NCBI GenBank assembly: GCA_029220445.1
Contig: GCA_029220445.1_3666.1
Length of the DNA stretch: 64,000 bases
Origin: a phage
Direction: 5' to 3' (one strand)
A program made the position numbers and the translations under genes. Shown piece after piece: positions 3,791-56,577 of this stretch. The notes under the pieces are model-generated. The model had not been told where the DNA came from, did no database searches, and worked only from the letters and a program-made list of their open reading frames with translations. Position 1 is the first letter of the stretch. Every line of letters starts with the position of its first letter.

Positions 3791-4162
3791 ATGGAATTTA
3801 TTATTTTGGCTATATTAGTTGCCTTGTTTAACGCCTGGATCGCTGGCAAGATGGGCAGATCCGCCTTTTTATGGTTTATTATATCTATTTTCCTGGGAGT
3901 GGTTGCAACTATTGTATTGGTTATCCTTGCAATTGTTGACAAGGGGAATAATAGAAAGGGTAAAGTATTTTCAGACCTGTACGACGCTCAAACATTTGTC
4001 AACGCCTACTACAGCGATCTTCCAGTCTCCCTACGTTGCAGCCTTGCACAACAGGTTTTCGATGAAGCTAAAACCAGAGATCACGCCCATGAGATTTGTT
4101 TAACTGAGGCGGATCGCCTATTTGAGAGGAATAGAAAATATGTGGACCAGCCGTTTAAATAA
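3791..4162 (+). CDS. small membrane protein (123 aa, two predicted TM helices)
   Basis: ATG 3791 with AGAGG RBS preferred over overlapping track start 3656; hydrophobic N-terminal 60 aa. Confidence 0.5.
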   Translation: MEFIILAILVALFNAWIAGKMGRSAFLWFIISIFLGVVATIVLVILAIVDKGNNRKGKVFSDLYDAQTFVNAYYSDLPVSLRCSLAQQVFDEAKTRDHAHEICLTEADRLFERNRKYVDQPFK

Positions 4163-12571: not shown

Positions 12572-12691
12572 GAAATCTCCTCTGGAAATGAGAGTGTGAA
12601 CAGGGTTTATACGTTCCAATGCACTGGAATTATGCACGTTTGCCTCTTCAGACCATGCTTTAGCATGAGGAACCTGTGTGGGCTCGGTGCT

Positions 12692-14538: not shown

Positions 14539-14693
14539 TACTGCGCTCCTTGGGTAATAATACTGTATGTAAAACTTTAACCAGAGATGTGAATAACGCC
14601 CCAAAACACACCGATAGCGCTAAAACAGACAAGGCCATCATTAAAGCTTCAGTAAAATCAGTCACCCCTCACCTCTTGTTAGTCACTATACTG

Positions 14694-14957
14694 TCATTTA
14701 TCCTTGCCGTCAAGAACTTTTTTAAATCTTTCAGGGATATCGCCTGTTCTTAGATAGCTCATGACCTCACAAGGTTCCCACTTAAATTTCTTACAAAGCA
14801 GGGCGGCTGAGATTGTTTCATTGCGAAAAGAAAGGATATTAATATCCCATTCTGAGAACCCCAACTTCCGAAGGGTAGCTACAGAAATCCTCACCGCAAC
14901 CCAGCAGCAAAAACATGCAACAAACGCCACTGCTATAACCCACATCAGGATGTTCAT
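14694..14957 (-). CDS. small membrane protein (87 aa, N-terminal TM helix)
   Basis: Hydrophobic N-terminus WVIAVAFVACFCCWVAV. Confidence 0.45.
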   Translation of the reverse strand: MNILMWVIAVAFVACFCCWVAVRISVATLRKLGFSEWDINILSFRNETISAALLCKKFKWEPCEVMSYLRTGDIPERFKKVLDGKDK

Positions 14958-21968: not shown

Positions 21969-22205
21969 TTAGGTGCGGTCTCCATCCCTACTCTCCTTTT
22001 TCTCCTTACGGATATTCTTGTAGTAATCAACTAGGCACATTATTACAATGAAGATAACAATAGGCCAAAAAGGTGCAGCAGTGATGATGGTGATAAAATC
22101 ATCAAACTCCACCTTTCGTCTAGCTAAGATGCATACACCTGTCAAGAATACCGCTGTTATAACGGCTATTACCAGGTAACCTATTAGCACAGCATTTATA
22201 CTCAT
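21969..22205 (-). CDS. small membrane protein (78 aa, two TM helices); holin-like topology but unassigned
   Basis: Two hydrophobic helices, charged C-terminal tail. Confidence 0.45.
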   Translation of the reverse strand: MSINAVLIGYLVIAVITAVFLTGVCILARRKVEFDDFITIITAAPFWPIVIFIVIMCLVDYYKNIRKEKKESRDGDRT

Positions 22206-45122: not shown

Positions 45123-45131
45123 GTATCCTCC

Positions 45132-45338
45132 TCATTCAAAGAAATGGGTGCGAGGGCAGGAACCTGCCTCACCTTGTTTCACAAGTTCGTAGAGCTCACC
45201 TTGGCTTGTCTCATAAAGGCAAATACGTTTACCATTGTCCCGATATACATCGACAAGATACGCTGTTTCACCTGCAAACACGACACCACAGGCCAGACAT
45301 GCTGCCATGAACAAAATTGCCAACAGAAAATCTTTCAT
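45132..45338 (-). CDS. small secreted protein or lipoprotein (68 aa)
   Basis: Signal-like N-terminus LLAILFMAACLACGVVFA; directly downstream of endolysin. Confidence 0.5.
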   Translation of the reverse strand: MKDFLLAILFMAACLACGVVFAGETAYLVDVYRDNGKRICLYETSQGELYELVKQGEAGSCPRTHFFE

Positions 45339-45401
45339 GGTTAAACCCTCCTAAACATTTTATGAGGTAAAAATACCACGTCCGTGTGGTTATGTCAATG
45401 A

Positions 45402-45872
45402 TCAATCAAGGACAACACCGCCTGCCTTTTTAAACACCTCGATCAACTTCTCAATCTTCTGTTCATGCTGACCATATCCAGCACCAGGTAACGAAGCCCA
45501 GCGGGAACGGCATTTATGGATAGCCTCGTGGATACGCCCTTCGTCAATGTCAGCGAGAGCCTTGCACTCACGGATCAGTTGCAACGCAATCTTGTCCTGA
45601 CTGGCAGGGCCAAAATCTGGTAATCCTAACTGTTTCATATAGTGTTTAGCAAACTTCTCCAAAACCTGGTAACGCCCAGCAGCGGAGGAGGTAAGTTTAG
45701 CATTTAGCTTAACGTAAACACCGGGGTGCTTGCTGTAATCGCTGAACAGCTTGCCGCCGACTATGACATCGTACCCCCGATCCTTGGTAGGTTGTCTACC
45801 ATTATCTGTGCCTTCCGAATATGCGATCATATCCAAGAAAGCTTTTCGTTGAACATTTTTATCAAGTTTCAT
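45402..45872 (-). CDS. endolysin, lambda R-like lytic transglycosylase/lysozyme (156 aa)
   Basis: QRKAFLDMIAYSEGTDNGRQ...GYDVIVGG...WASLPGAGYGQ blocks match lambda R from memory. Confidence 0.85.
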   Translation of the reverse strand: MKLDKNVQRKAFLDMIAYSEGTDNGRQPTKDRGYDVIVGGKLFSDYSKHPGVYVKLNAKLTSSAAGRYQVLEKFAKHYMKQLGLPDFGPASQDKIALQLIRECKALADIDEGRIHEAIHKCRSRWASLPGAGYGQHEQKIEKLIEVFKKAGGVVLD

Positions 45873-45995
45873 TTTTCATACTCTCCAGTTTACTCATAAC
45901 TAACCCGATCAACAACACTGCATAGTGTGGTTATGTAGGTGCCAATTGAAAACCATCATTCAATTGGTTACCGTTACCTACTAGACCTTCCTACA

Positions 45996-47261
45996 TTATT
46001 CCAGCACCTCCCAAGTTTCTGGATTAAGATTGCGGAATGCGATACCCACAGGGAATTGAGGCACACCGTCCACCGTACGCTGTTGGAATTTTATCGTGAT
46101 AAATTTGCCAACATATGAGCAGCATTTTTCGTAGTTCCTTACGGCAAAAGTGCCTTTCATTTTGCATTTGCATTGTGTCCCATCTTTCTCTTCGCAGATA
46201 AGAACACCTTCCCCGTTTTTATCTTTTTCAACACCGATCACTTTTGCTTCAACATCGGTGAACAGTTTCCACTTGAGCAGATCAGTAGAGCGTTGACCGT
46301 ATTCGTAGGTGCCACGGAAGTTACGAATAATAGATCCTTCATAACCTTCCTGCATGTACTGTCCGATGGAGTTGCGAACCTCTTCCTCGTTGTAGGCGAT
46401 CTTGAAAGGAACACCCTCGACGTTGGTGAGATGGTTAACTTCACAATAATCAATAACTTCCTGAAGATTTGTGGCCCGATCTTCCCAGCGATGGATGCAA
46501 TCAGGAACATCGAACACCATCAGTTTCAGGTCATAAGAGCAGTAACCTCCATACCGATCAGAATCACGGACAGGTTCTTCATAAACCGGATGATCAACCT
46601 TGTTGAAGTCTTTCCATGTCTCCTCTCCGGCCTTGATCGCTTTCTCACGGCGTTTTATGTCTGCCATGAAATCCTTATCAATTTCTTTCTCAATGTCTTC
46701 CAGACTACGCCATTTCTTAACGAGGGAGGTTATTTTCTGCAACGGTAAACCGTGAATGTAGAACTCCCCATCAAATTCATCAAAGCCTGTTTCTTCATGC
46801 AGGTCTTGTAGCTCACGGAGGATGTTACCTTTCGGCTCATACACTTTGTTACCGCGAGAGATGAATTTAGGTACACCGTCTACGAATTTGACAAAGCAAC
46901 GGTTCCCGTCAAGTTTGTGTTGCAGGTGGCATGGATACACAATAGCGTGTGGTTTTTTCGAAGCATCTTGCGCCAGCATAGGTGAAATGTCAATGGCCTC
47001 AAGGTCTTCGACATTTTCTTTGTAACCCAGCCGGACTTGCTTTTCCCATTTAGACTGCGCCTCTAAAACAGCTTGTTCTTCTGCTGTAGTTTCGTTGGAT
47101 CGCCCGATGTTTTTGGCTTCACATTTTGTGGTTTTTGATTGTACAGCGCCACCAACCCTGCCGAACACAACAATAACCTCGTTGCCGCTTGTATCTACTT
47201 TCCACATCTGGATGGACCCGTCTTTATTGCGAGCATAAAGTGTTGTTTTGAATTGATGCAT
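45996..47261 (-). CDS. ATP-dependent DNA ligase (421 aa)
   Basis: Motif I KLDGNR, motif IV EGSIIRN, motif V LLKWK. Confidence 0.7.
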   Translation of the reverse strand: MHQFKTTLYARNKDGSIQMWKVDTSGNEVIVVFGRVGGAVQSKTTKCEAKNIGRSNETTAEEQAVLEAQSKWEKQVRLGYKENVEDLEAIDISPMLAQDASKKPHAIVYPCHLQHKLDGNRCFVKFVDGVPKFISRGNKVYEPKGNILRELQDLHEETGFDEFDGEFYIHGLPLQKITSLVKKWRSLEDIEKEIDKDFMADIKRREKAIKAGEETWKDFNKVDHPVYEEPVRDSDRYGGYCSYDLKLMVFDVPDCIHRWEDRATNLQEVIDYCEVNHLTNVEGVPFKIAYNEEEVRNSIGQYMQEGYEGSIIRNFRGTYEYGQRSTDLLKWKLFTDVEAKVIGVEKDKNGEGVLICEEKDGTQCKCKMKGTFAVRNYEKCCSYVGKFITIKFQQRTVDGVPQFPVGIAFRNLNPETWEVLE

Positions 47262-47530
47262 TACTCTACCTCTTCCTTAAAAATTTTAAACATCTCTTCT
47301 TTACTCATTACCAACCAGTCACCCATAAAATCAACAAGCCAATCACCCTGGTACAAGACTAGGTTACCAAACGGCTCTACAAGCTCACACATACGACGAA
47401 GATCTCTGGTCCGAACAGGTGACGATGTAAACACACCTGTATCAATCCACCGTTGCAGATCAGATACTGATGAAGAGCTTCCGTCAAACTGGTGTGCTTC
47501 TACAGGTTTAGCAAGATTAAATAACGGCAT
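47261..47530 (-). CDS. hypothetical protein (89 aa)
   Basis: ORF with stop/start overlap to ligase. Confidence 0.45.
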   Translation of the reverse strand: MPLFNLAKPVEAHQFDGSSSSVSDLQRWIDTGVFTSSPVRTRDLRRMCELVEPFGNLVLYQGDWLVDFMGDWLVMSKEEMFKIFKEEVE

Positions 47531-47825
47531 TGCAGTCCTCCTTCTCTAATAGGTCTTTTATCGGGTAAACAAGCAGGTGTGGATCGTAATAATTTATAGT
47601 TTTATTCTGCCACACTATGAACTTAATTACAACTAAATTTACCACATCTTTATCTCCATGTAGTCCAACACACAGATTTGTCCATATTTTGTGGTTGAAT
47701 ACTTTGCTGTCGATGTAGATCTTAGTGTCAAACTTATCCTCTATCCTACCTATAAATTTAACCAATTCTTTCATCTGATCTCCAAACACAGCATCGTTTT
47801 CAAGATCTCTGGAGTGCTTGTACAT
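47517..47825 (-). CDS. hypothetical protein (102 aa)
   Basis: ORF on minus strand. Confidence 0.45.
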   Translation of the reverse strand: MYKHSRDLENDAVFGDQMKELVKFIGRIEDKFDTKIYIDSKVFNHKIWTNLCVGLHGDKDVVNLVVIKFIVWQNKTINYYDPHLLVYPIKDLLEKEDCNAVI

Positions 47826-47888
47826 AACTTTCTACCTCACTTGCATACTTTCCGAAACAAGTAAAGCCGGGTAATCCCGGCTATGTTG

Positions 47889-48602
47889 TTAAATATACTC
47901 TGTTACATCCTTGAAGCTCGAAGGCTTCATAATCTTACCTTTATTGTCAAGGAATATGATAACTTTATTACCGTTGTAGAATTCTTCCTTGGCAACAAAA
48001 CCTTCATATCGACCATCAAAGCGTCGTTCAAGATCTTTAATCTCCAACTCGATTAGTTGTTCAGCAGGCATATCTGCACTGGCACCGTGTGAATACCGTA
48101 GATGGTTGACCCGTGCAAACTTGCTGTCATTCGATTTGAGAACCTTACGCATCATCCCGCACACATCGCCGCGAAGCTGGAACAGCAAAGCTGTTGACAA
48201 CTCTGCTAAGCGGTAAGCAGACGCTCTTTGCTTAGAGGTGTTTTTCGCAGCGATCAGTGTATCATAGAACTCGCCGATCTTGAACTTAATACCTCGCGGA
48301 TTATCAAACAGGTTTGACCACTTTTCGTGATTATCATTAACAAGATAAGCGGCATAACTTGTGACAACGTGAAGATCGCAGGCCTCTTTTAGCAGGTGAT
48401 CTCCACCATCACCTTTCTCCAGCTCTTCCAAAACCTCATTGAACTCTTCCTCAATGAAGCTAAGCTGTAATTCGAATGGTGTGTATGATTTTTTCACTTT
48501 AGCTGCCACACGGTTCCAGTTTTCCACCCAATTGGCAGACCAAAGGTAGTTTTCAGGCTGAGACAGTTTTTCCAGGTTGTCGATCAGTTTAGTATTCAGC
48601 AT
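47889..48602 (-). CDS. MazG-like nucleotide pyrophosphohydrolase (237 aa), tentative
   Basis: EExxE ... ExxD pattern (FIEEEFNEVLEELEKGD...LKEACDL). Confidence 0.4.
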   Translation of the reverse strand: MLNTKLIDNLEKLSQPENYLWSANWVENWNRVAAKVKKSYTPFELQLSFIEEEFNEVLEELEKGDGGDHLLKEACDLHVVTSYAAYLVNDNHEKWSNLFDNPRGIKFKIGEFYDTLIAAKNTSKQRASAYRLAELSTALLFQLRGDVCGMMRKVLKSNDSKFARVNHLRYSHGASADMPAEQLIELEIKDLERRFDGRYEGFVAKEEFYNGNKVIIFLDNKGKIMKPSSFKDVTEYI

Positions 48603-48615
48603 TAAAGGTCTCCTT

Positions 48616-49377
48616 TTAAAGTTCCATAAAGTTTTCTACAGTTTCAATAAATGCTTTATCAGAGAAAGCGTCAACAGCACCGTTAAACCATACAGGGATC
48701 CCGCGATCCTCATATTGATAAAGGTCGCTACGTGAAATGCCACTTCCATCTGCACTCTGCGAATCATACTTGTTTACAATCAGCAGTTTTGTTCCTTTAC
48801 AAGTAGCAGGAAACAATTCCCAGTTAAAATTAATAACTGTGTTAGAACAACCCACTAGGATCACCATATCATTGCTGGTGAGAGATGTCAACAGGTCATA
48901 CATGTCTGTATACTTAGGAGCAACCTCACCGAAGAACACTACATTGGGCTTAACCCAAGTATACTTGCCTGTATCTACCTCCGTGTATCCGATATTTTTA
49001 ATTACATCATTACCTTCAGCATCTTCGTAGGTGATTTCAGGCAAATACCCGTGGACATGTAAAATATCTTCATGTTTTACACCAGCACGCTCCAGCAAAT
49101 CATCTACATTGGTGGTAAGGTTGATCACACGACCAGACCAGCGGGAATACCACTCAGCGATCCGAAGATGTGCAAGGTTAGGATCAACACTGCCCAGAGC
49201 TACACGACGTGCATTGTAAAAGTCATGCACCTTATAGTAGTTCTTGGCAAAGGTGTGGATGTTGCACACCTCATCGATGCTGAAATTCTCCCACATTGCA
49301 GTGCTACCAGATCGGAAGGTGGGAATACCAGATTCTGCGCTCAAACCAGCACCAGAAATAACAATAAGTCGTCGCAT
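48616..49377 (-). CDS. Sir2-family (sirtuin-like) NAD-dependent enzyme lacking the canonical Cys4 zinc ribbon (253 aa)
   Basis: GAGLSAESGIPTFR, FYNARR, TTNVDDLLERAG, HVHG, VVFFGE, ILVGCS in sirtuin order; no CxxC pairs between HG and VVFFGE. Confidence 0.7.
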   Translation of the reverse strand: MRRLIVISGAGLSAESGIPTFRSGSTAMWENFSIDEVCNIHTFAKNYYKVHDFYNARRVALGSVDPNLAHLRIAEWYSRWSGRVINLTTNVDDLLERAGVKHEDILHVHGYLPEITYEDAEGNDVIKNIGYTEVDTGKYTWVKPNVVFFGEVAPKYTDMYDLLTSLTSNDMVILVGCSNTVINFNWELFPATCKGTKLLIVNKYDSQSADGSGISRSDLYQYEDRGIPVWFNGAVDAFSDKAFIETVENFMEL

Positions 49378-49385
49378 AAATGTCC

Positions 49386-49736
49386 TTAGTAGATGTTTTG
49401 TTTGATCTCTATTCCAAACTTCTTGAATGAGTCAGCAGCAAGCATAAATTTACGAGCTGCCGATGGATTAGAAGTATGCACGAAAATAATCACGTTGTCA
49501 ATAAGTGGTGGCTTTCCGAATACAAGTTTCTCCTCTAGCGCAGAGAAGCAGTCGTACCCTTCAAGAACTTCACCTAGATCATTGTCAAAATACCATTCAG
49601 ATACGCGTCTGTAGAGCTTTCTCTTATCATTAAGAAAATCCATAAATTCAGAAGAATTCTTTAGCCACAGAGCGTCTGGGAGTCCATAATCTGACGGATC
49701 TCTAAAATCATCAAGCCACACAATCCACTTCTTCAT
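49386..49736 (-). CDS. hypothetical protein (116 aa)
   Basis: ATG 49736 with GAGGA RBS; IVWLDDFRDP ... FDNDLGE motifs, no family assigned. Confidence 0.5.
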   Translation of the reverse strand: MKKWIVWLDDFRDPSDYGLPDALWLKNSSEFMDFLNDKRKLYRRVSEWYFDNDLGEVLEGYDCFSALEEKLVFGKPPLIDNVIIFVHTSNPSAARKFMLAADSFKKFGIEIKQNIY

Positions 49737-50668
49737 TGCATATAGTCCTCGTTGTGGAAATAGCAGTCCAGTATCTCGCGACGCTCCTGCTCTAATAAGC
49801 AATTCCACACATCTTCTGTATAGTTGCTACGAATAAATTTTACCATACCGTAAAACTCCTCGTCAACACGTTTAAAAATATCGTCATCCCAAATCTTCCA
49901 TGCTTTACCTCTCATTACGGCCTTCCGTGCCAAATAGTATGGAGACTTGATCTTCAGCTGCAGGTCATAAGGGCAGTAAGGCTTACGGATCATATACCCT
50001 TCGCCCCTTGTTTCTGCAGCTAATTCTTTTGCATAGCTGAACGGGATTTCACGCACAGTGTGAGGACGTTTTGCACCAAGGTATTTGGCAATCCCATCTA
50101 AAGCTGCTTCTGGTAGCATTATTCCAGAATCATTATATCTGCAACCTATCAAATATGCGCCATGGTCTTCTTGAACAATATGCGGATCTGAAGGGTGACA
50201 AATTTCAAACATGAATGTCATGTTTTCATTGCCCATAACCTTCTTGATAAGATCTAAATTACCACATTGCTCTTGGATGGTTTCCTTTGCAAGGTTACAA
50301 TATGGAGAATCAAGAGACCCGGTTGTTGAGAACAATAGTTCACCTTTATGAGATGATACCACACCGAGGAATCCGTTCTTTTTCTCTACCGCAGTAACAA
50401 GTTTACTGTCCGGTAGGTTGGTGGAGTTTTCTCCTAAGTTGAATACTTTTGTGAAAGGCCATGCCACAACATTCCCCTCATTGCCAACAACAATACCTCG
50501 GCACTCCAGTAAACGCGGAGACAAATGCCACAGATTGTTGTAGAATACTTTTCTGGCATATTTATAGATCTTTAATCCAAGATCTGGATAATACCGACTG
50601 GTTACAAGACCTTTGTCTACTAGGTCATCTGCATTAAAATACTTCATCATACGTTCCTCATTTGTCAT
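49733..50668 (-). CDS. polynucleotide ligase of the covalent nucleotidyltransferase family, probable RNA ligase (311 aa)
   Basis: Motif I EKKNGF, motif IV EGYMIRK, motif V LQLKIK; divergent from kinase/phosphatase genes. Confidence 0.5.
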   Translation of the reverse strand: MTNEERMMKYFNADDLVDKGLVTSRYYPDLGLKIYKYARKVFYNNLWHLSPRLLECRGIVVGNEGNVVAWPFTKVFNLGENSTNLPDSKLVTAVEKKNGFLGVVSSHKGELLFSTTGSLDSPYCNLAKETIQEQCGNLDLIKKVMGNENMTFMFEICHPSDPHIVQEDHGAYLIGCRYNDSGIMLPEAALDGIAKYLGAKRPHTVREIPFSYAKELAAETRGEGYMIRKPYCPYDLQLKIKSPYYLARKAVMRGKAWKIWDDDIFKRVDEEFYGMVKFIRSNYTEDVWNCLLEQERREILDCYFHNEDYMQ

Positions 50669-50768
50669 TTTGTCAGTCTATCCTGCCACACAAATAACCT
50701 AGTGTCAACACTTGAAATTAACAAAACAGTTAGGTATACTATCATTAAAATTAAAACGGAGGATTGCT

Positions 50769-51179
50769 ATGTCTAAAATGCTATATATCGTGCGTGGTCT
50801 GCCAGGGTCTGGCAAATCAACACTGGCAAATGCGCTATCTTTAGAAGGTCTGTATCCACATTTTGAGAACGACATGTTCTGGTATGACGATGACGGCAAT
50901 TACAACTGGGATGCAAGTAAAGTAACACTCGCAGCAAAATGGTGCAAAGATAACGTAGAAGATATGATGAGTATGGGATACGACCGTATCGTGGTAAGTA
51001 ATACGTTTACAAAAGAAAAACATGTGCAGGAATATGTTGACATGGCAATCAGTCATGGGTATAGTTATACCGTGATCGTGGTTGAAAACCGCCACGGTAA
51101 TAAAAGCATTCATGATGTTCCAGACAAGGTTGTGGATCGTATGGAACGCCAGCTTAAAAACTGCATTAAACTTAAATGA
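50769..51179 (+). CDS. polynucleotide 5'-kinase-like P-loop kinase (137 aa)
   Basis: Walker A GLPGSGKST and VVSNTFT block resemble T4 Pnk kinase domain; ATG 50769 with GGAGG RBS. Confidence 0.6.
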   Translation: MSKMLYIVRGLPGSGKSTLANALSLEGLYPHFENDMFWYDDDGNYNWDASKVTLAAKWCKDNVEDMMSMGYDRIVVSNTFTKEKHVQEYVDMAISHGYSYTVIVVENRHGNKSIHDVPDKVVDRMERQLKNCIKLK

Positions 51180-51186
51180 GGAATGT

Positions 51187-51741
51187 ATGAAATACTTTGT
51201 AACAAGCGACACACACTTTCTCCACCAGCGGGTCATGGAGTTTGATTCATGTCAAAAACACAGATCTCAGTATGATCACAATCTTGACAGTATGAATGCG
51301 GGAATCATCGCCGAGTGGAACTCTGTTGTGTCACCTGCAGACACTGTGTTCCACTTGGGAGATATTGCGTGCACTAATGATAAGAATATCAACAAATTAC
51401 TTCCAGATATTCTAGATATGTTGAACGGACATATTATTCTTGTTCGTGGCAACCATGACACAAGGACGACTGTCAGAATTATGAAAGAGTTCTATCACGA
51501 GGTTGTAGATTATTACGAGCTTCGCCACAACAAGAATTTGATCTGTATGAGCCATTACCAATTTGCAAAGTGGAACAGAAAGCCTCACGGATCAGTCCAA
51601 CTGTTCGGTCATGCTCACGGAACCACACAACAGTTGTTTGGCAGGCAGCTTGATGTCGGTTGGGATGTGTGGGGGAGACTCTTACCATTAGAAGAGGCAT
51701 ACCGTACTGCAATGAGTTTTGATATTGACAGCAGGGAGTAA
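51187..51741 (+). CDS. calcineurin-like metallophosphoesterase (185 aa)
   Basis: SDTHF, GD, GNHD, GHAHG motifs; ATG 51187 with GAGGA RBS. Confidence 0.65.
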   Translation: MKYFVTSDTHFLHQRVMEFDSCQKHRSQYDHNLDSMNAGIIAEWNSVVSPADTVFHLGDIACTNDKNINKLLPDILDMLNGHIILVRGNHDTRTTVRIMKEFYHEVVDYYELRHNKNLICMSHYQFAKWNRKPHGSVQLFGHAHGTTQQLFGRQLDVGWDVWGRLLPLEEAYRTAMSFDIDSRE

Positions 51742-51788
51742 TCCCTGCTATTTTAAAGAAAATTGCCACACAAGGAGAATCAGGAGAT

Positions 51789-52139
51789 ATGAAAGATGGG
51801 GATAAGCTGCTATATCTTAAAGTCCCCCTTGAAATACTGTCTATGTCAAAAGTTTTGAATGACACAACTGGGGAGGTTGTTGTTCTTGACTTGTATGACA
51901 AGATCGTATACTGCTACCTGCACAACTGGTATAAACTTGGAGGAAATTCACGCTTCACACCCAGCACAAGGAAAATTGCAGCAGATGTTGGGATAAAGAA
52001 AACAAAAGCAGCAGCGTGCGTTAAAACTTTAGAATGTGCAGGATTGGTTGAAACATCCACACAGGGGAGAGGTAAAAGATGCACATTTTCCAAAGTTTTG
52101 CCACCAGAAAAAGTTATTCGAATGTCAACAACTGGTTAG
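51789..52139 (+). CDS. helix-turn-helix DNA-binding protein (116 aa)
   Basis: STRKIAADVGIKKTKAAACVKTLECAGLVE HTH/winged-helix-like segment; upstream of palindromic operator array. Confidence 0.55.
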   Translation: MKDGDKLLYLKVPLEILSMSKVLNDTTGEVVVLDLYDKIVYCYLHNWYKLGGNSRFTPSTRKIAADVGIKKTKAAACVKTLECAGLVETSTQGRGKRCTFSKVLPPEKVIRMSTTG

Positions 52140-52213
52140 ACCAGTAAAAACTTAAATATCTGTACTATAAGGATTCGTATGTTTTATGTTCGCTCTGGAA
52201 CAGAGGTTAGTAA

Positions 52214-52297
52214 CTGTCCGTGATACGGACACTACTGTCCGTCACGCGGACACATCTGCCCGTAATACGGACACTAACTGTCCGTGATACGGACACA
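52214..52297. promoter_or_regulatory. array of four palindromic operator-like sites (GTCCGTnAnACGGAC) at ~21-22 bp spacing
   Basis: Four tandem copies read from sequence, each an inverted repeat; followed by AT-rich inverted repeats to ~52440. Confidence 0.65.
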
Positions 52298-52439
52298 TAA
52301 AGAATATAACTAAAATAACTAAATAATAAAAAATAAAAGATCTAGTACTTATGGTACTAAAGTACATATACTTAACTTATGTAGAATATACTAGATCCTA
52401 AGTACCATGTTTTAAATTTATTACTTACTGTAGGTAGTG

Positions 52440-52740
52440 TCGGCCCTTCATTGGCACTCGCCTACGAGGGGCGAGATGCCGGGCCTCCGTAGTGCACACA
52501 TGCAGGTCTGTTAACATGTGTGGGAGCGAAGCGATAGCGCAGGCCAAAGGCCGAGCACTAATGTGGACCACCGACGAAAGCTTGCCAGCGCCGTAAGGAG
52601 TCGGTTGAGAGCCTCCCGCGCGAGTTTGGATAAAGTTTATGTGTGGAAACGGACAATGAGGCCCCTAAATCGCTCCACAGCCATATAAACTATACCAAGT
52701 AAGGCAATCGCACCAGTTTGATAGAAAAGCTCGTTACAAA
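52440..52740 (+). ncRNA. GC-rich, ORF-free island with multiple hairpins; candidate structured RNA or structured 5' leader of ORF 52783
   Basis: Local GC well above neighbouring sequence; stems cacacatg/catgtgtg, ctcgcc/ggcgag, ggcc-aaa-ggcc; no ORF of 60 aa or more on plus strand. Confidence 0.3.
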
Positions 52741-52782
52741 GCGATACAGTGAGTTTTTCTATAACTTGAAGAGGAGGCAGCT

Positions 52783-53361
52783 ATGAGTCCACGCAAAGAT
52801 GACCGTGAAAAGATTGCAAAACGTTATCAGAATGAAGAACAGATGGAGAAAACTTTCAAGTGGAAGCCAGGTTTCCAGCGTAATCATTCTAACGCTCGTG
52901 ATCGTAAGCATCCGGATAAGTGGTTAACACCGCCAAATGATGGCATGCAGGTTGGTGATGAGAAGGAGCTGTCACCTGGAAAAGATGGCAACTACATTCG
53001 CACTAAGGAAGCAGGTCCAAAGGATGACAGCTATCTTGTAGATAAGGTTCTTGATGGTATTGATGTAGATGTTGACACTGCACGAAACCTTTTTCTTGGT
53101 TGGTATCGTACAGGGTTTTTCGACATCAAGGCGATTCGTCGTGTTTGTGATATTAAAAAGTCTGCCTATGATGATGACTCTCTACATCGCACTCTGAGAC
53201 AATACTCAGAGAGATACGGTCATCCAGTTATCACTCTTGACGATATTAACGAAGTGATGTATCATGCAGAGGTTGTTGCAGGTAGATTCGGTGATGCATA
53301 TCTCGGTATTCTTTCTGCAAAAGATGAGGTGATGTTAAATAAAATTTACTATGAACGCTGA
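52783..53361 (+). CDS. hypothetical protein (192 aa)
   Basis: ORF with GAGGAGG RBS. Confidence 0.55.
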   Translation: MSPRKDDREKIAKRYQNEEQMEKTFKWKPGFQRNHSNARDRKHPDKWLTPPNDGMQVGDEKELSPGKDGNYIRTKEAGPKDDSYLVDKVLDGIDVDVDTARNLFLGWYRTGFFDIKAIRRVCDIKKSAYDDDSLHRTLRQYSERYGHPVITLDDINEVMYHAEVVAGRFGDAYLGILSAKDEVMLNKIYYER

Positions 53362-53560
53362 GGAGCGCTTAATGAACAACCCGGTAGCAAAGAACTGTAA
53401 TAAGTTCAACAAGTCTGCAATTCACACTGACAGGAAAAAGAGCTGGTCTCCTGACATTGACGAGGAGCTTGAGAGTTACTTTGAAGACCTGGTCACTAAT
53501 GCAGATGAGGTTGCGATTAAAGAATACGCAGACAGGAAGGATAAGGCCGGAATCTGTTGA
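53351..53560 (+). CDS. hypothetical protein (69 aa)
   Basis: Start overlaps upstream stop; TGA stop embedded in next -35. Confidence 0.45.
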   Translation: MNAEERLMNNPVAKNCNKFNKSAIHTDRKKSWSPDIDEELESYFEDLVTNADEVAIKEYADRKDKAGIC

Positions 53561-53585
53561 CAAAAATAGTGTTACCTGATAAGAT
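53557..53585 (+). promoter_or_regulatory. sigma70-like promoter (TTGACA-N17-TAAGAT)
   Basis: Hexamers upstream of ORF 53637. Confidence 0.55.
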
Positions 53586-53636
53586 CTGCAATATGATGTG
53601 ATGCAATTTTAACTTACGAGGTCTACAGGTAATGCT

Positions 53637-53879
53637 ATGTTTAAGGTTAAGCTCGTTTTTCGTTCCATGAATGAGGATTATTTAGAAGATGAAGGTGAAT
53701 TTCGTGCACTGGATGATGCAATAGATTTTGCCAACGACTTAGCTTGTATGAATACAGGTTATGGGCTATGTTGTTGGGATGGTGGTGTTCAGATCGGTGA
53801 TAGCAAGATCTTCTACTTCTACCCTGAGCCTGATAACAAACAAATTAAGTATGTTTTATTTATTTGTGCTTTACAATGA
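53637..53879 (+). CDS. hypothetical protein (80 aa)
   Basis: ORF downstream of promoter. Confidence 0.5.
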   Translation: MFKVKLVFRSMNEDYLEDEGEFRALDDAIDFANDLACMNTGYGLCCWDGGVQIGDSKIFYFYPEPDNKQIKYVLFICALQ

Positions 53880-53939
53880 GGTTGTTTTCGTGTATCATGA
53901 TTAATATCCAATTTAAAGATGAATTTGATGGCTTTATCT

Positions 53940-54165
53940 CTGGATGCTTTGAAACAGGGTTCGGAGAAGGCTGAGTTCCCCTTAGAGGGCTTGATAGTGC
54001 ACCACACTTAAAATGGTAGGGGCAGCCAGCACATGACGATGTGACCCCAGCCAACCTGTAACAAGGTCGAGCCGAAGCGCGGGTAATAGGCCTCTGGTAA
54101 CCCACTTGTTGGGTCTTGCTGGTCCAGGACGCTGGACAAGTCGCAGGGAATACCACCCTGCGGCG
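53940..54165 (+). ncRNA. GC-rich, ORF-free island with nested hairpins (two GACG-loop hairpins); candidate structured RNA
   Basis: Stems cacat-gacg-atgtg, gtccag-gacg-ctggac, caggg-aatacca-ccctg and long-range ggctg/cagcc pairing; preceded by TTTACA-N17-TATCAT promoter-like sequence. Confidence 0.3.
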
Positions 54166-54168
54166 AAC

Positions 54169-54197
54169 TTGACAATCAGTATTTGCTATGATAAAAT
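54169..54197 (+). promoter_or_regulatory. sigma70-like promoter (TTGACA-N17-TAAAAT)
   Basis: Hexamers upstream of ORF 54226. Confidence 0.6.
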
Positions 54198-54225
54198 CCA
54201 CCTATCACGTGATAATGGAGGAAAC

Positions 54226-54564
54226 ATGGCGGATACAACTAAAAAGCGTCGCCGTAGAGGCAGACCTCTGAAAGAGGAGTCCAACGCCATTCAGCTAGAG
54301 AAGAACATCCTTGATATGAAGGAATCTTTTATAGCGATGGTTCCAGAAGCTCACAAAGTTTTAAGAGAGCTGATGTTGGACCCGAAAACCAAACAAAATA
54401 TTCGTCAAAGCATTGCAGAGTATGTTCTTGATAAGGCAGACCGAATGCAGGAAGAATATGATGAGATGTTTGGTGAAGAGGAAGAGGTGGTAGTGGAAGA
54501 GGCTGAAAAACCAGCACCTTTTATGCCATTTACTACAGAAATACAGCCTGTTAGCAATAGCTAA
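54226..54564 (+). CDS. DNA-binding-like protein with basic N-terminus and acidic C-terminus (112 aa); candidate small terminase subunit
   Basis: ATG 54226 with GGAGG RBS; KKRRRRGRP N-terminus; TerS call is from position and composition only. Confidence 0.45.
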   Translation: MADTTKKRRRRGRPLKEESNAIQLEKNILDMKESFIAMVPEAHKVLRELMLDPKTKQNIRQSIAEYVLDKADRMQEEYDEMFGEEEEVVVEEAEKPAPFMPFTTEIQPVSNS

Positions 54565-54660
54565 AATATTTTCTTGACAAACTTTGCTTAACAGTGTAAT
54601 ATTGTAAACATGGTCTCCCACCTTTTCTGGCGGCTAAGGTGTAAAAGAAAGCCACCCAGT

Positions 54661-54735
54661 GCCCTGTTAGCTTAGTGGATAAAGCAGCGGCCTTCTAAGC
54701 CGTTGACACTGGTTCGAGTCCAGTACGGGGTGCCA
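54661..54735 (+). tRNA. tRNA-Arg (anticodon UCU)
   Basis: Manual cloverleaf: acceptor gccctgt/acggggt, anticodon loop cttctaa, T-loop ttcgagt, CCA encoded. Confidence 0.8.
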
Positions 54736-54739
54736 AATT

Positions 54740-54826
54740 GGGGAGTTATCCCGTAGAGGTAGCGGTGTAGACTGTAAATCTATTGTCATTGCGACTCGGG
54801 TGGTTCGACTCCACCACTCCCCACCA
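54740..54826 (+). tRNA. tRNA-Tyr (anticodon GUA), type II with long variable arm
   Basis: Acceptor ggggagt/actcccc, anticodon loop ctgtaaa, T-arm ggtgg-ttcgact-ccacc, CCA encoded. Confidence 0.7.
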
Positions 54827-54940
54827 AATTTATATTTTTAGATGCATAAATAATACAGATAATGGCATTGATATTTATCGTCGTTTATACTAGTCACTAA
54901 CTGCTCGAAAATCAGTGTCATTATCAGTATAATTTATAAA

Positions 54941-55031
54941 GGAGGGTAGGGAGCAATGGTGCTCAAGCGGTCTTGAAAACCGTCCCGTTGAGGATGACTC
55001 GATGATGGTTCGATTCCATTACTCTCCGCCA
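54941..55031 (+). tRNA. tRNA-Ser (anticodon UGA), type II with long variable arm
   Basis: Acceptor ggagggt/actctcc, anticodon loop cttgaaa, T-loop ttcgatt, CCA encoded; position 8 is A (unusual). Confidence 0.65.
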
Positions 55032-55129
55032 CATTGTTGACCTTGTAATTAAGCGAAAGCCGGAAGCAGAACCGGATTATCAAATGTTACAGTCGTCATC
55101 GCCGACTAGCAACATGGTCAACATACTGA

Positions 55130-55226
55130 GCTAGGTAAGCCCTTTGGCAAGGGCGAGGATTTTTAATCCTGAAAATAGACGAGGTAGTCGTTGAATACAT
55201 AGGTGGTTCGATTCCATCACCTAGCA
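55130..55226 (+). tRNA. atypical tRNA-like element (97 nt): normal acceptor, D and T arms, 4-bp anticodon stem with loop tttttaa (UUU, Lys-like) and ~30-nt extra arm; may be a pseudogene
   Basis: Acceptor gctaggt/acctagc perfect; D arm gccc-tttggcaa-gggc; T arm ggtgg-ttcgatt-ccatc; no CCA. Confidence 0.35.
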
Positions 55227-55233
55227 CCTTTTT

Positions 55234-55309
55234 GCTGATGTAGCACAATCGGTAGTGCAATTGATTTGTAATCAATAGGTTGTAGGTTCAAGTCCTGCCA
55301 TCAGCACCA
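55234..55309 (+). tRNA. tRNA-Thr (anticodon UGU)
   Basis: Acceptor gctgatg/catcagc, D stem gcac/gtgc, anticodon arm attga-tttgtaa-tcaat, CCA encoded. Confidence 0.8.
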
Positions 55310-55310
55310 A

Positions 55311-55385
55311 GGCCCTGTAGCTGGAAGGTTCAAGCAAGCGACTCATAATCGCCAGACGGTGGTTCAATTCCACCCAGGGCCACCA
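55311..55385 (+). tRNA. tRNA-Met (anticodon CAU; elongator, or Ile2 if lysidine-modified)
   Basis: Acceptor ggccctg/cagggcc with G1-C72, anticodon loop ctcataa, T arm ggtgg-ttcaatt-ccacc, CCA encoded. Confidence 0.7.
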
Positions 55386-55396
55386 AATAGTAAATA

Positions 55397-55473
55397 CTCC
55401 GCGTAGCTCAGCTTGGTAGAGCGCCTGATTTGGGATCAGGAGGTCGAGTGTTCGAATCACTCCGTGGAGACCA
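55397..55473 (+). tRNA. tRNA-Pro (anticodon UGG)
   Basis: Acceptor ctccgcg/cgtggag (C1-G72 as in tRNA-Pro), anticodon arm cctga-tttggga-tcagg, T-loop ttcgaat, CCA encoded. Confidence 0.8.
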
Positions 55474-55519
55474 CTTTCAGTTATACTTTAAACATATACA
55501 AACAAAAGGAACCTTTAAA

Positions 55520-55789
55520 ATGTATACACTTAAAATTGTAGAGCGTGTAAATCCAACTCATACCGTAGATTTTCGTGACGATTTCAATCCTCTGGCTGTA
55601 AATCTTCGAGAGTCATATCATGAACTCAGCTGCGATGCAGTGGTGGTCTTTTTTGAAGACAACTCTGAAGGGGCGGTAGCTTGTGTTGTTGATAGTGAGC
55701 AGAAGTTTTATATTTACAGAGATGTAGATGCATACTTGATGAATGAAAATGCAGTTACTGTTAGAATCATCCACCGAGTGCCTCGATAA
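55520..55789 (+). CDS. hypothetical protein (90 aa)
   Basis: ATG 55520 with AAAGGA RBS just after tRNA cluster (track start 55430 lies inside tRNA-Pro). Confidence 0.5.
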   Translation: MYTLKIVERVNPTHTVDFRDDFNPLAVNLRESYHELSCDAVVVFFEDNSEGAVACVVDSEQKFYIYRDVDAYLMNENAVTVRIIHRVPR

Positions 55790-55842
55790 GTATTAGTCTC
55801 CTTTTAGTTAGTTTCGATCTATTTAGGTTACTCAATTTTAAC

Positions 55843-55877
55843 CCGCCCCGTTAGCTGTATAGCTGCGGGGTTTTTTC
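55843..55877 (+). terminator. intrinsic terminator (ccccg-loop-cgggg + TTTTTT)
   Basis: GC stem and T-run after ORF 55520-55789. Confidence 0.65.
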
Positions 55878-55894
55878 GTTTCTGGAGCCTTAAA

Positions 55895-56293
55895 ATGATT
55901 TCAGTTTTAACATGGCTGAGTAGGTATAGAGGGATCATAAAAGGTTTAGTTTTTGCAGCTGCGATAGGTACAGCTTATCTTGGAGCCGTGTATTGGTTTA
56001 ACTCTAAGCTTAATGATGCCTACCAAGAAGGTGTGTCAGCAACAGAGTTAAAGTGGGAACGGATCCTTGATCAGCAACAAAAGCAGGCCGACAAAATTAA
56101 AATGGGCCACGCAGAGGAGGTTAAAAACCTTGAAAAATCCCTTTCTGACCTGCAGGATAAATTAAATATGGCTGAGAAGGCAGGTAAAGAAAAGCAGATT
56201 ATTTACCTCCAATCACCTGAGGGTAAGAAGTCAACACTCCCTGATCAGCTTATAGATATTTATAATGAGAGTATTAATCAGGAGGGTCGATGA
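55895..56293 (+). CDS. inner-membrane spanin component, Rz-like (132 aa)
   Basis: N-terminal TM helix then charged coiled-coil periplasmic domain; ATGA overlap with lipoprotein gene. Confidence 0.55.
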   Translation: MISVLTWLSRYRGIIKGLVFAAAIGTAYLGAVYWFNSKLNDAYQEGVSATELKWERILDQQQKQADKIKMGHAEEVKNLEKSLSDLQDKLNMAEKAGKEKQIIYLQSPEGKKSTLPDQLIDIYNESINQEGR

Positions 56294-56577
56294 GAGTTGC
56301 TGCACTGTTTATTGTGTGCTTGTTATTGTGTGGGTGTGCAACCAGCGTTGAGAGAGAATACAAGATTGACCCTCCAGATGTAGGAAGGTTGATTGTTAAA
56401 CCCCCGGAAGGTGCCATGAAACCACCTGCTAAAGCTATACCTTTAAAGAAAGGTGCGCCAGATGCGGTGAATTCTGGCATTATGAGGGATAATAATCTGT
56501 CTTGTAGCAATGATAGAGCTAAATTGATCATTTTGCAAGACTATATTAGAACACTGTTTCCAAAGGAGAGAGGTTAA
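56290..56577 (+). CDS. outer-membrane lipoprotein spanin component, Rz1-like (95 aa)
   Basis: Signal peptide with lipobox LLCGC; proline-rich mature region. Confidence 0.6.
   Translation: MRVAALFIVCLLLCGCATSVEREYKIDPPDVGRLIVKPPEGAMKPPAKAIPLKKGAPDAVNSGIMRDNNLSCSNDRAKLIILQDYIRTLFPKERG

What the first reader, a model, noticed from the sequence alone, without database searches (positions are those of the whole stretch)
45132..56577. Lysis functions split across two loci
The lambda-R-like endolysin (45402-45872) and a small secreted or lipoprotein neighbour lie on the minus strand, while a spanin pair (TM + coiled-coil protein 55895-56293 overlapping lipoprotein 56290-56577) sits 10 kb away directly upstream of the large terminase. 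No holin could be assigned; small two-TM proteins at 21969-22205, 14694-14957 and 3791-4162 are candidates. The small secreted protein beside the endolysin could instead be a superinfection-exclusion lipoprotein.
Basis: partly seen in the sequence, partly recalled or inferred. Interest (0 to 1): 0.35.

Follow-up and report, generated by a model that had tools for sequence, protein, structure and literature searches.

The report
Scattered lysis genes, rV5-like coliphage
The window comes from a close relative of the well-studied E. coli phage rV5, and its cell-bursting genes (a lambda-type endolysin and, 10 kb away beside the DNA-packaging gene, a two-part spanin) are real but already annotated and published, so the finding is ordinary; only the membrane-hole protein (holin) is still unproven.

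Summary
The window is 98.7-99.1% identical to Escherichia phage V5/rV5 (Vequintavirus). ORF 45402-45872(-) is rV5 gp085, a soluble lambda-R-type endolysin (PDB 1AM7, E 9e-57). ORFs 55895-56293 and 56290-56577(+) are rV5 gp068/gp067, an i-spanin/o-spanin pair with an ATGA overlap, an N-terminal TMD followed by long helices, and a lipobox at Cys16. They abut the large terminase. All of this is in RefSeq, in the spanin catalogue of Kongari 2018 and in the CB7 paper, which states that the rV5/PVP-SE1/CB7 spanins sit beside the terminase and outside any lysis cassette. The holin is a known gap. Neither has holin homology or informative relatives. The third candidate, 14694-14957, has one TMD, not two. 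The small neighbour 45132-45338 is a Sec/SPase-I secreted 46-aa disulfide peptide, not a lipoprotein. It keeps its genomic position in relatives that have no adjacent endolysin, so the adjacency is probably incidental. Novelty: already known. Interest: low.

The parts
45402..45872 (-). Soluble lambda-R-type endolysin (lytic transglycosylase family). It is the homologue of rV5 gp085/ORF89.
   Evidence: It matches PDB 1AM7 at E 8.8e-57 over residues 4-154, with the SEGT catalytic Glu aligned. It matches phrog_90 at E 2e-56. No TMD or signal was found in the hydropathy scan. The corresponding rV5 gene is annotated 'endolysin'.
45132..45338 (-). Small Sec-secreted periplasmic peptide (rV5 gp086/ORF90, phrog_4641). 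It has a 22-aa signal peptide ending in an AxA-type site. The mature 46-aa part has two invariant Cys. It is probably not a lysis gene.
   Evidence: One N-terminal hydrophobic segment was found. Family alignments show a variable signal peptide, conserved small residues at -3/-1, non-conserved h-region Cys, and invariant C40/C61. In Serratia phage Kashira and Salmonella phage SSBI34 the homologue sits between the DNA ligase and exonuclease genes, as here, with no endolysin beside it. The AF2 model is a small 4-strand beta fold with pLDDT 81.6, and no PDB match reaches E<0.05.
45370..45398 (-). Sigma-70-type promoter (rV5 P90) between the endolysin stop and the 68-aa gene. It gives the small gene its own transcription start.
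   Evidence: The scan finds TTGACA-17-TATTTT with a TG extension, 10 of 12 matches. It is listed as P090 in rV5 Table S4 and in RefSeq.
55845..55877 (+). GC-rich hairpin followed by T6 (intrinsic-terminator-like). It lies 18 nt upstream of the i-spanin start codon and closes the tRNA/ORF68 unit.
   Evidence: The fold has dG -16.9 kcal/mol. The sequence was read directly. It is not in the rV5 terminator list.
55895..56293 (+). i-spanin (Rz-like). It has an N-terminal TMD and then two periplasmic helices separated by a linker. It is the homologue of rV5 gp068/ORF67.
   Evidence: It matches phrog_4297 at E 1.5e-49 and two further Rz-like PHROGs more weakly. The TMD scores 1.8 in the hydropathy scan. 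The AF2 single-sequence model gives helix 12-99, a disordered stretch 100-114 and helix 115-129. RefSeq calls it 'Rz-like spanin'.
56290..56577 (+). o-spanin (Rz1-like outer-membrane lipoprotein). The lipobox is L-C-G-C16 with Ala at +2. The mature form is 80 aa, 11% Pro, with one further Cys at position 72. It is the homologue of rV5 gp067/ORF66.
   Evidence: It matches phrog_1267 at E 1.8e-22. The lipobox pattern match and composition were computed. The ATGA overlap with the i-spanin gene was read directly. Homologues are annotated o-spanin or Rz-like spanin in phages of several hosts (Escherichia, Salmonella, Klebsiella, Proteus, Enterobacter) among 192 matching records.
56577..58124 (+). 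Large terminase subunit. It starts on the last base of the o-spanin stop codon and begins the head/packaging module.
   Evidence: It is a 515-aa ORF. The junction reads TAATG. The same i-spanin, o-spanin, TerL order is seen in BASEL phage MaxTheCat and in rV5.
21969..22205 (-). Holin candidate A. It is 78 aa with 2 TMDs and a K/R/E/D-rich C-terminus. It equals rV5 ORF129/gp124, the 'putative holin' of Kropinski et al. 2013.
   Evidence: The hydropathy scan gives 2 TMDs. It is 97.4% identical to V5 94058-94291. The rV5 paper text and Table S3 call ORF129 'putative holin'. It matches only phrog_10061, of unknown function. It has no relatives outside Vequintavirus. A TTGACA-17-TAGTAT promoter lies directly upstream.
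3791..4162 (+). Holin candidate B. It is 123 aa with 2 N-terminal TMDs and a C-terminal domain of about 75 aa. It appears to equal rV5 ORF183/gp178 and is annotated 'putative holin' in the BASEL phage MaxTheCat.
   Evidence: The hydropathy scan gives 2 TMDs. It is 95% identical to bas57_0112 'putative holin'. It matches phrog_13090, of unknown function. Only close relatives were found. It is the first of three small membrane-protein genes lying between terminator-like hairpins at 3736-3755 and 4506-4527.
14694..14957 (-). 87-aa protein with a single N-terminal TMD, apparently rV5 ORF155/gp150. It is a weak holin candidate and is followed by a 46-aa single-TMD ORF at 14525-14665.
   Evidence: The hydropathy scan finds one segment only, at residues 3-21. 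It matches phrog_13956, of unknown function.

Best explanation
The window is part of a Vequintavirus (rV5-like myovirus) genome. Its lysis genes are scattered, as in T4, rather than grouped in a lambda-style cassette.

Inferred mechanism, by analogy with lambda and T4. A soluble lambda-R-type transglycosylase (45402-45872) accumulates in the cytoplasm. A still unproven holin opens the inner membrane and releases it. After the murein is degraded, the i-spanin (55895-56293, inner-membrane anchored, helical periplasmic domain) and the o-spanin (56290-56577, outer-membrane lipoprotein) fuse the two membranes and complete lysis.

Genomic placement. The spanin pair is translationally coupled to, and sits directly upstream of, the large terminase at the head of the late structural module. 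This position is conserved across Vequintavirinae.

The 68-aa neighbour of the endolysin is an independently promoted, Sec-secreted, disulfide-bonded periplasmic peptide. Its adjacency to the endolysin is most likely incidental. Its most likely role is an early envelope or superinfection-related function.

What is shown: gene identities, topology features, synteny and prior annotation. What is inferred: the order of events, the requirement for a holin, and the role of the 68-aa peptide.
For: Identity of the phage. The window is 99.1% identical over 12 kb and 98.7% over 25 kb to phage V5/rV5.

Annotation. RefSeq annotates gp085 as endolysin and gp068/gp067 as Rz-like spanins in the same order next to TerL.

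Endolysin. It matches lambda lysozyme 1AM7 at E 8.8e-57 and has no TMD.

Spanins. PHROG matches are E 1.5e-49 and 1.8e-22. The TMD, lipobox at C16, non-Asp +2 residue, Pro-rich mature part and ATGA overlap are all present. The i-spanin model shows helix-linker-helix. Homologues are annotated as o-spanin or Rz-like spanin in phages of several hosts.

Literature:
- rv5 is listed among the 'separated' two-component spanin families (PMC6139136).
[quoted passage not shown] The 68-aa protein. Family alignments and synteny in relatives without an endolysin neighbour, plus its own promoter.
Against: No experiment on lysis of any rV5-like phage was found, so every function is assigned by homology or topology.

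No candidate membrane protein matches a holin family in PHROGs, Pfam or NCBIfam. Two different genes carry 'putative holin' labels in published annotations.

rV5 also encodes a signal-bearing SleB-like hydrolase outside the window. This enzyme could contribute to, or even drive, murein degradation.

A terminator-like hairpin lies immediately upstream of the i-spanin, and no promoter for the spanin-TerL unit was identified. The timing of spanin expression is therefore inferred from position only.
Confidence: 0.9

Rival explanations
1. The holin is the 78-aa two-TMD protein at 21969-22205 (rV5 ORF129). It would act as a class II holin encoded about 23 kb from the endolysin.
For: It has two TMDs and a highly charged C-terminus. 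The rV5 authors proposed it because it was the only protein that both TMHMM and Phobius gave two TMDs. It is present in 116 Vequintavirus-type records. It lies in a short gene run that also contains an MS-detected virion structural protein at 21106-21567, which hints at late co-expression.
Against: It has no homology to any holin family. It has no relatives outside the genus, so gene neighbourhood gives no support. It shows no similarity to the Certrevirus class II candidate CB7_82. A near-consensus sigma-70 promoter lies directly upstream, which would suit early expression. The CPT annotation of LL12 and the BASEL annotation did not accept it.
Confidence: 0.3
2. The holin is the 123-aa two-TMD protein at 3791-4162 (apparently rV5 ORF183). 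It heads a three-gene cluster of small membrane proteins that could be a holin/antiholin set.
For: It has two strong TMDs and a hydrophilic C-terminal domain. It is annotated 'putative holin' in the curated BASEL genome MaxTheCat at 95% identity. Two single-TMD ORFs follow it, and the cluster is bracketed by terminator-like hairpins. Expression could therefore depend on read-through and be delayed.
Against: It has no holin-family match. Only close relatives are known. It lies in the region of small genes with many sigma-70 promoters that looks like an early, host-takeover region. Membrane proteins in such regions are more often exclusion or immunity factors.
Confidence: 0.2
3. The 68-aa neighbour (45132-45338) belongs to the lysis system, for example as an RI-like periplasmic antiholin or another lysis-timing regulator. 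On this reading its position beside the endolysin is functional.
For: It lies immediately downstream of the endolysin. It is secreted to the periplasm with a conserved disulfide pair. That is the same general format as T4 RI, a comparison made from my own knowledge. rV5 carries rIIA/rIIB homologues.
Against: Homologues in Serratia phage Kashira and Salmonella phage SSBI34 sit between the same DNA ligase and exonuclease genes but have no endolysin next to them. The gene has its own sigma-70 promoter. It matches only phrog_4641, of unknown function. The predicted fold has no informative structural match.
Confidence: 0.1
4. The principal murein-degrading lysis enzyme is the signal-bearing SleB-like hydrolase encoded outside the window (rV5 gp002), exported independently of a large-hole holin. 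The lambda-R-like enzyme would then be accessory, which would explain why no canonical holin is found.
For: rV5 gp002 matches PF07486 at E 2.1e-19 and has an N-terminal hydrophobic segment. The CB7 paper says homologues occur in all Vequintavirinae genera, carry a signal peptide, are toxic when expressed, and that the CR3 homologue has been implicated in lysis.
Against: SleB-like hydrolases are widespread in phages that have a different annotated endolysin, including many ~110-kb siphoviruses of Escherichia and Salmonella. A cytoplasmic R-type endolysin conserved at high identity across the genus implies that it is used. The gene is not in this window, so nothing here tests the idea.
Confidence: 0.1

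Closest known systems
Escherichia phage V5/rV5 gp085 (endolysin) and gp068/gp067 (Rz-like spanins), and their orthologues in other Vequintavirus genomes
   Same: The DNA is 98.7-99.1% identical, the gene order is the same, and the 68-aa gp086 is 100% identical.
   Different: The terminase gene downstream is uninterrupted here, whereas rV5 has three exons and an HNH gene. Otherwise nothing relevant to lysis differs.
Phage lambda R lysozyme (lytic transglycosylase; PDB 1AM7, 3D3D)
   Same: The alignment is full-length at E 8.8e-57. The proteins are the same size (156 vs 158 aa). The catalytic Glu in the SEGT motif is conserved, and there is no export signal.
   Different: The gene is not in an S-R-Rz cassette. 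It sits among DNA-metabolism genes, downstream of DNA ligase, on the opposite strand from the spanins.
Two-component spanins: lambda Rz/Rz1 and, for gene architecture, T4 PseT.3/PseT.2
   Same: There is a type II inner-membrane protein with helical periplasmic segments, plus a small Pro-rich outer-membrane lipoprotein. The genes are adjacent and coupled. rv5 is listed in the 'separated' class together with T4.
   Different: No sequence similarity to lambda Rz/Rz1 was shown here; they belong to a separate PHROG family. The i-spanin has no Cys and the o-spanin has a single periplasmic Cys, so the lambda pattern of intermolecular disulfides cannot be identical. The location next to TerL differs from a position next to the endolysin.
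T4 arrangement of lysis genes (e, t, pseT.3/pseT.2, rI, rIII scattered)
   Same: The endolysin, spanins and putative holin lie in separate places. The rV5 authors draw the same comparison. rIIA/rIIB homologues are present in rV5.
   Different: No homologue of the T holin or of RI was detected. The endolysin is lambda-R type, not T4 E type.
T4 Spackle (Sp) and T4 RI: small Sec-exported periplasmic phage proteins (comparison from my own knowledge, not tested)
   Same: The 68-aa protein is also a small exported periplasmic protein with a disulfide pair and is probably expressed from an early-type promoter.
   Different: There is no sequence or fold similarity. The predicted fold is beta, and the PDB search gave only non-significant matches. 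Function is untested.

Membership tests
Lambda-type endolysin (lambda R lytic transglycosylase) | Full-length sequence homology to lambda R | tested here: met
   1AM7 at E 8.8e-57, residues 4-154 aligned to 3-153. phrog_90 'endolysin' at E 2e-56. Note that no Pfam or NCBIfam model reached E 0.1.
Lambda-type endolysin (lambda R lytic transglycosylase) | Catalytic glutamate in the N-terminal (A/S)-x-S-E-G-T motif | tested here: met
   AYSEGT aligns with lambda AWSEGT in the HMMER alignment.
Lambda-type endolysin (lambda R lytic transglycosylase) | Cytoplasmic (no signal peptide or SAR domain), hence holin-dependent | tested here: met
   No hydrophobic segment of 19 residues reaches Kyte-Doolittle 1.6. 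Holin dependence itself is inferred.
Lambda-type endolysin (lambda R lytic transglycosylase) | Transglycosylase activity producing 1,6-anhydro-muropeptides | not testable with these tools
   Needs an enzymatic assay.
Two-component spanin: i-spanin | Single N-terminal TMD, N-in/C-out | tested here: met
   There is one hydrophobic segment at about residues 14-35 and none elsewhere. Orientation is inferred.
Two-component spanin: i-spanin | Periplasmic domain of two alpha-helical (coiled-coil) stretches joined by a linker | tested here: met
   AF2 single-sequence model: helix 12-99, low-confidence loop 100-114, helix 115-129, mean pLDDT 72. No dedicated coiled-coil predictor was run.
Two-component spanin: i-spanin | Gene adjacent to, overlapping or embedding an o-spanin gene | tested here: met
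   ATGA overlap at 56290-56293.
Two-component spanin: o-spanin | SPase II signal with lipobox Cys | tested here: met
   MRVAALFIVCLLLCG|C16 matches the PROSITE-style lipobox pattern. Lipid modification itself was not tested.
Two-component spanin: o-spanin | Outer-membrane sorting (no Asp at +2) and a short Pro-rich mature part | tested here: met
   Ala at +2. The mature form is 80 aa with 9 Pro, 11%.
Two-component spanin (pair) | Required for outer-membrane disruption; complements lambda Rz/Rz1 | not testable with these tools
   Needs genetics.
Holin (applied to 21969-22205 and 3791-4162) | Small membrane protein with at least one TMD and a charged hydrophilic C-terminus | tested here: met
   Both have 2 TMDs. 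The 78-aa protein ends in YYKNIRKEKKESRDGDRT.
Holin (applied to 21969-22205 and 3791-4162) | Homology to a described holin family | tested here: not met
   Both match only PHROGs of unknown function, and there are no significant Pfam or NCBIfam hits. hhalign against the Certrevirus candidate CB7_82 gave probability 0.3%.
Holin (applied to 21969-22205 and 3791-4162) | Linkage to endolysin or spanin genes, here or in relatives | tested here: not met
   They lie 23 kb and 41 kb from the endolysin. No distant homologues exist to supply other contexts.
Holin (applied to 21969-22205 and 3791-4162) | Late expression and lethal, energy-poison-triggerable hole formation | not testable with these tools
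   Promoter scans only: a sigma-70-like site lies upstream of 21969-22205, and terminator-like hairpins flank the 3791-4501 cluster.
Bacterial lipoprotein (applied to the 68-aa protein 45132-45338) | Conserved lipobox with invariant Cys at +1 | tested here: not met
   This copy matches a loose pattern at C14. However, C14/C17 are absent from 6 of 11 family members, and the -1 residue is Leu in another.
Sec/SPase I secreted protein (applied to the 68-aa protein) | n-h-c signal peptide with small residues at -3/-1, and a sequence-variable signal on a conserved mature part | tested here: met
   The sites VFA|G, TFA|G, WS(A)|G and AHA|S(G) are aligned. The mature 46 aa has 35 invariant positions within the genus and 2 invariant Cys family-wide.

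The most novel reading that the evidence does not exclude
The most novel reading not excluded has two versions.

First, rV5-like phages may release their soluble lambda-type endolysin by a membrane-permeabilising protein of a family not yet recognised as a holin. This could be one of the two conflicting 'putative holins' or another small membrane protein.

Second, the strongly conserved 46-aa periplasmic disulfide peptide encoded next to the endolysin may be a new kind of lysis-timing or superinfection-exclusion factor.
Probability: 0.12. Interest if true: 0.4.

Novelty: already known. Interest (0 to 1): 0.1.

Why it matters
It matters little as a discovery. The gene identities and their scattered arrangement are already in RefSeq and in several papers on rV5, LL12, CB7 and the spanin catalogue.

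The residual value is practical. rV5-like phages are used in phage typing, biocontrol and commercial preparations, yet their holin has never been demonstrated. Two different genes carry the label 'putative holin' in public records. A simple genetic test would settle an annotation conflict that propagates through more than 100 genomes.

Tried and rejected
1. Lipoprotein reading of the 68-aa protein. Rejected, because the Cys is not conserved in the family.

2. Functional link between the 68-aa protein and the endolysin. Relatives keep the gene in the same place without an endolysin. The protein after the ligase gene in Kashira has no similarity to the endolysin.

3. Structure-based function for the 68-aa protein. 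The AF2 model is reasonable (pLDDT 81.6), but the Foldseek PDB search gave only non-significant generic small beta-domain matches, best E 0.057.

4. Holin by family search. PHROGs, Pfam and NCBIfam were run on 10 or more small membrane proteins from the window and on rV5 gp003/gp029/gp031. None hit a holin family.

5. Holin by distant homologues and context. Large-database searches for both published candidates returned only Vequintavirus-type relatives, and tblastn gave the same result.

6. Homology between candidate A and the Certrevirus class II candidate CB7_82 beside SleB. None was found.

7. Late-promoter motif. The rV5 late-promoter-like motif TGGTAAAATA (1 mismatch allowed) gives 15 hits in the window against 6.65 expected. 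None lies directly upstream of the endolysin or the spanins. One hit at 22938-22947(-) lies about 730 nt upstream of candidate A, inside the coding sequence of another gene.

8. A dual-start motif for candidate B. Rejected, because the upstream in-frame codon is GTA and the longer ORF runs through a terminator hairpin.

9. The window region 1-12 kb and the rest of rV5 were scanned for further membrane proteins. gp031 (1 TMD, tail-fibre module, outside the window) was noted but not pursued.

Full report
**What the window is.** Megablast of 45000-57000 gives 100% coverage at 99.1% identity to Escherichia phage V5/rV5 (NC_011041.1, DQ832317.1) and to E. coli O157 typing phage 5. The region 39001-64000 gives 98.7% identity. 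The window is therefore about 64 kb of a Vequintavirus (rV5-like myovirus) genome. RefSeq annotation of the matching rV5 stretch gives, in the same order and orientation:
- ATP-dependent DNA ligase
- gp085 'endolysin'
- promoter P90
- gp086 'hypothetical protein; contains transmembrane domain'
- an HNH endonuclease
- on the other strand, a tRNA cluster, ORF68, gp068 and gp067 (both 'Rz-like spanin'), and the large terminase

The 156-aa product of 45402-45872(-) matches lambda lysozyme (PDB 1AM7/3D3D) at E 8.8e-57 over essentially its whole length. The catalytic Glu of the SEGT motif is aligned. It also matches phrog_90 'endolysin' at E 2e-56. It has no hydrophobic segment, so it is a soluble, cytoplasmic endolysin. 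Pfam and NCBIfam gave no hit at E<=0.1, so the assignment rests on the PDB and PHROG matches.

The 132-aa product of 55895-56293 has one N-terminal TMD. It matches phrog_4297 'Rz-like spanin' at E 1.5e-49, plus two other Rz-like PHROGs weakly. A single-sequence AlphaFold model gives a helix-linker-helix periplasmic part: helix 12-99, disordered 100-114, helix 115-129, pLDDT 72.

The 95-aa product of 56290-56577 matches phrog_1267 'Rz-like spanin' at E 1.8e-22. It has a PROSITE-type lipobox ending at Cys16 with Ala at +2. The mature part is 80 aa, 11% Pro, with one further Cys.

The two spanin genes overlap by ATGA. The o-spanin stop overlaps the terminase ATG.

**Is it new?** No.
- Kongari et al. 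2018 list rv5 among the 'separated' two-component spanin families (PMC6139136).
[quoted passage not shown] Similar statements exist for Gotham and KPP-1.
- tblastn with the o-spanin finds 192 records. Many are annotated o-spanin or Rz-like spanin, in phages of Escherichia, Salmonella, Klebsiella, Proteus and Enterobacter.
- The rV5 genome paper describes the lysin Gp89. [quoted passage not shown]

**The holin candidates.** I scanned all ORFs of the window on the coding strands with a Kyte-Doolittle window of 19 residues.

Candidate A, 21969-22205, has two TMDs and a charged tail. It is 97.4% identical to rV5 94058-94291, which is exactly ORF129, the published putative holin.

Candidate B, 3791-4162, has two TMDs and a C-terminal domain of about 75 aa. 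It is 95% identical to bas57_0112 of the curated BASEL phage MaxTheCat, which is annotated 'putative holin'. In that same genome the ORF129 homologue is 'hypothetical protein'.

The third candidate, 14694-14957, has one TMD, not two.

No candidate hits a holin family in PHROGs, Pfam or NCBIfam. Neither of the two two-TMD candidates has relatives outside Vequintavirus-type contigs. Candidate A shows no profile similarity to CB7_82, the Certrevirus class II candidate beside the SleB-like gene.

Context clues are weak and point in different directions:
- Candidate A has a TTGACA-17-TAGTAT promoter directly upstream. It also lies in a short run of genes with a virion structural protein.
- Candidate B heads three small membrane-protein genes bracketed by terminator-like hairpins, in what looks like the early region.

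I put about 0.3 on A and 0.2 on B. The rest goes to another protein or an unconventional route.

**The small neighbour, 45132-45338.** This 68-aa protein is rV5 gp086 and matches phrog_4641, of unknown function. An alignment was made of eight homologues from the large protein database plus homologues from Serratia phage Kashira and Salmonella phage SSBI34. It shows the following:
- The N-terminal hydrophobic region is highly variable.
- Small residues are conserved at -3/-1 (VFA|G, WS|G, AHA|S/G).
- The h-region cysteines are absent from most members.
- The 46-aa mature part is nearly invariant, with two invariant Cys.

This is the signature of a Sec/SPase-I secreted, disulfide-bonded periplasmic peptide, not a lipoprotein and not a membrane-resident holin.

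In Kashira and SSBI34 the gene sits between the same DNA ligase and exonuclease genes, but no endolysin is next to it. In rV5 the gene has its own sigma-70 promoter, P90. The adjacency to the endolysin is therefore most likely incidental.

AlphaFold gives a small four-strand beta fold (pLDDT 81.6), with no significant PDB match (best E 0.057). An early periplasmic role, such as superinfection exclusion or envelope modification, is my best guess. It is unproven.

**Mechanism.**

Shown:
- gene identities
- topology features
- translational coupling of i-spanin, o-spanin and TerL
- conservation of this arrangement in the subfamily

Inferred, from the lambda/T4 paradigm:
- the soluble transglycosylase accumulates in the cytoplasm
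- a holin releases it
- the spanin complex then disrupts the outer membrane

Two further points bear on the picture. First, a strong hairpin followed by T6 (dG -16.9 kcal/mol) lies 18 nt before the i-spanin start, and no sigma-70-like promoter follows it. How and when the spanin-terminase unit is transcribed is therefore open. Second, rV5 encodes, outside this window, a SleB-like hydrolase (PF07486, E 2.1e-19) with an N-terminal hydrophobic signal, next to rIIA, with rIIB nearby. The CB7 paper reports that homologues of this hydrolase are toxic on expression and implicated in lysis. Lysis-related functions are therefore spread over more than two loci.

**Verdict.** It restates the published annotation of rV5-like phages. 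The only open element, the holin, is a recognised gap that sequence analysis could not close here. Novelty: already known. Interest: 0.1.

Noticed in passing
window 55130-55228 (+): A seventh tRNA-like gene lies in the tRNA cluster. ARAGORN reports an odd 4-base anticodon 'atcc' and a length of 99 nt. Rfam tRNA scores 35.5 bits, above the gathering score of 29. It is not among the six tRNAs annotated in rV5 RefSeq. It could be a tRNA with an insertion or a degenerate copy.
   Followed up: partly
window 56577-58124 (+): The large terminase gene is one uninterrupted 515-aa ORF here, as in BASEL phage MaxTheCat. In rV5 it is joined from three pieces and contains an HNH homing-endonuclease gene. 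The introns are therefore polymorphic among near-identical phages.
   Followed up: partly
window 55845-55877 (+): A GC-rich hairpin followed by T6 (dG -16.9 kcal/mol) lies 18 nt upstream of the i-spanin ATG. It is not in the published rV5 terminator list. No sigma-70-like promoter lies between it and the spanin-terminase genes.
   Followed up: partly
window 3736-4527 (+): Three consecutive small membrane-protein ORFs (3791-4162, 4216-4398 and an ORF of about 39-53 aa ending at 4501) lie between two terminator-like hairpins at 3736-3755 and 4506-4527. The first ORF is labelled 'putative holin' in BASEL genomes, which conflicts with the rV5 paper's choice of ORF129.
   Followed up: partly
window 45132-45338 (-) and homologues P0002-P0010: Within the gp086 family the signal peptide exists in two quite different versions (MKDFLLAILFMAAC... 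and MKTLWAVFISAMM...). The 46-aa mature peptide stays almost invariant, which indicates strong selection on a tiny periplasmic protein of unknown function.
   Followed up: yes
window 21106-21567 (-): The homologue of the rV5 'virion structural protein' ORF133 (phrog_7821) has a C-terminal hydrophobic segment at residues 129-147. It lies in the long leftward-transcribed block that also carries the DNA-metabolism genes, four small ORFs downstream of the ORF129-type putative holin.
   Followed up: no
phage collection hits MG065635-MG065684 ('Campylobacter phage' C15, A12a, A116 and others): About 20 unannotated GenBank records named Campylobacter phage are 97-100% identical to this E. coli rV5-like phage group. 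This suggests mislabelled hosts or contaminating coliphages in those preparations.
   Followed up: no
L005:1980-2480 (rV5 gp002, outside the window): This is a SleB-like cell-wall hydrolase (PF07486) with an N-terminal hydrophobic signal whose predicted cleavage region is VAA|P. It lies immediately upstream of rIIA. It is a second muralytic enzyme that could be secreted or membrane-tethered.
   Followed up: partly
window ~10500-12900: This is the AT-richest stretch of the window (GC 0.38). It lies at the point where the coding strand and GC skew switch. It carries short tandem repeats at 10628-10682 (15-nt unit) and 10763-10803 (16-nt unit). It probably corresponds to the ORF-free 'non-coding' box that the rV5 paper draws on its map (the gap between ORF163 and ORF164 in RefSeq), and it is a possible replication origin or regulatory region.
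   Followed up: no
L005:22348-22662 (rV5 gp031, outside the window): A 104-aa protein with one N-terminal TMD and a coiled-coil-like C-terminal part is embedded in the late tail-fibre module. T4's holin gene t is similarly placed next to the tail-fibre genes. This is another untested holin-type candidate.
   Followed up: no
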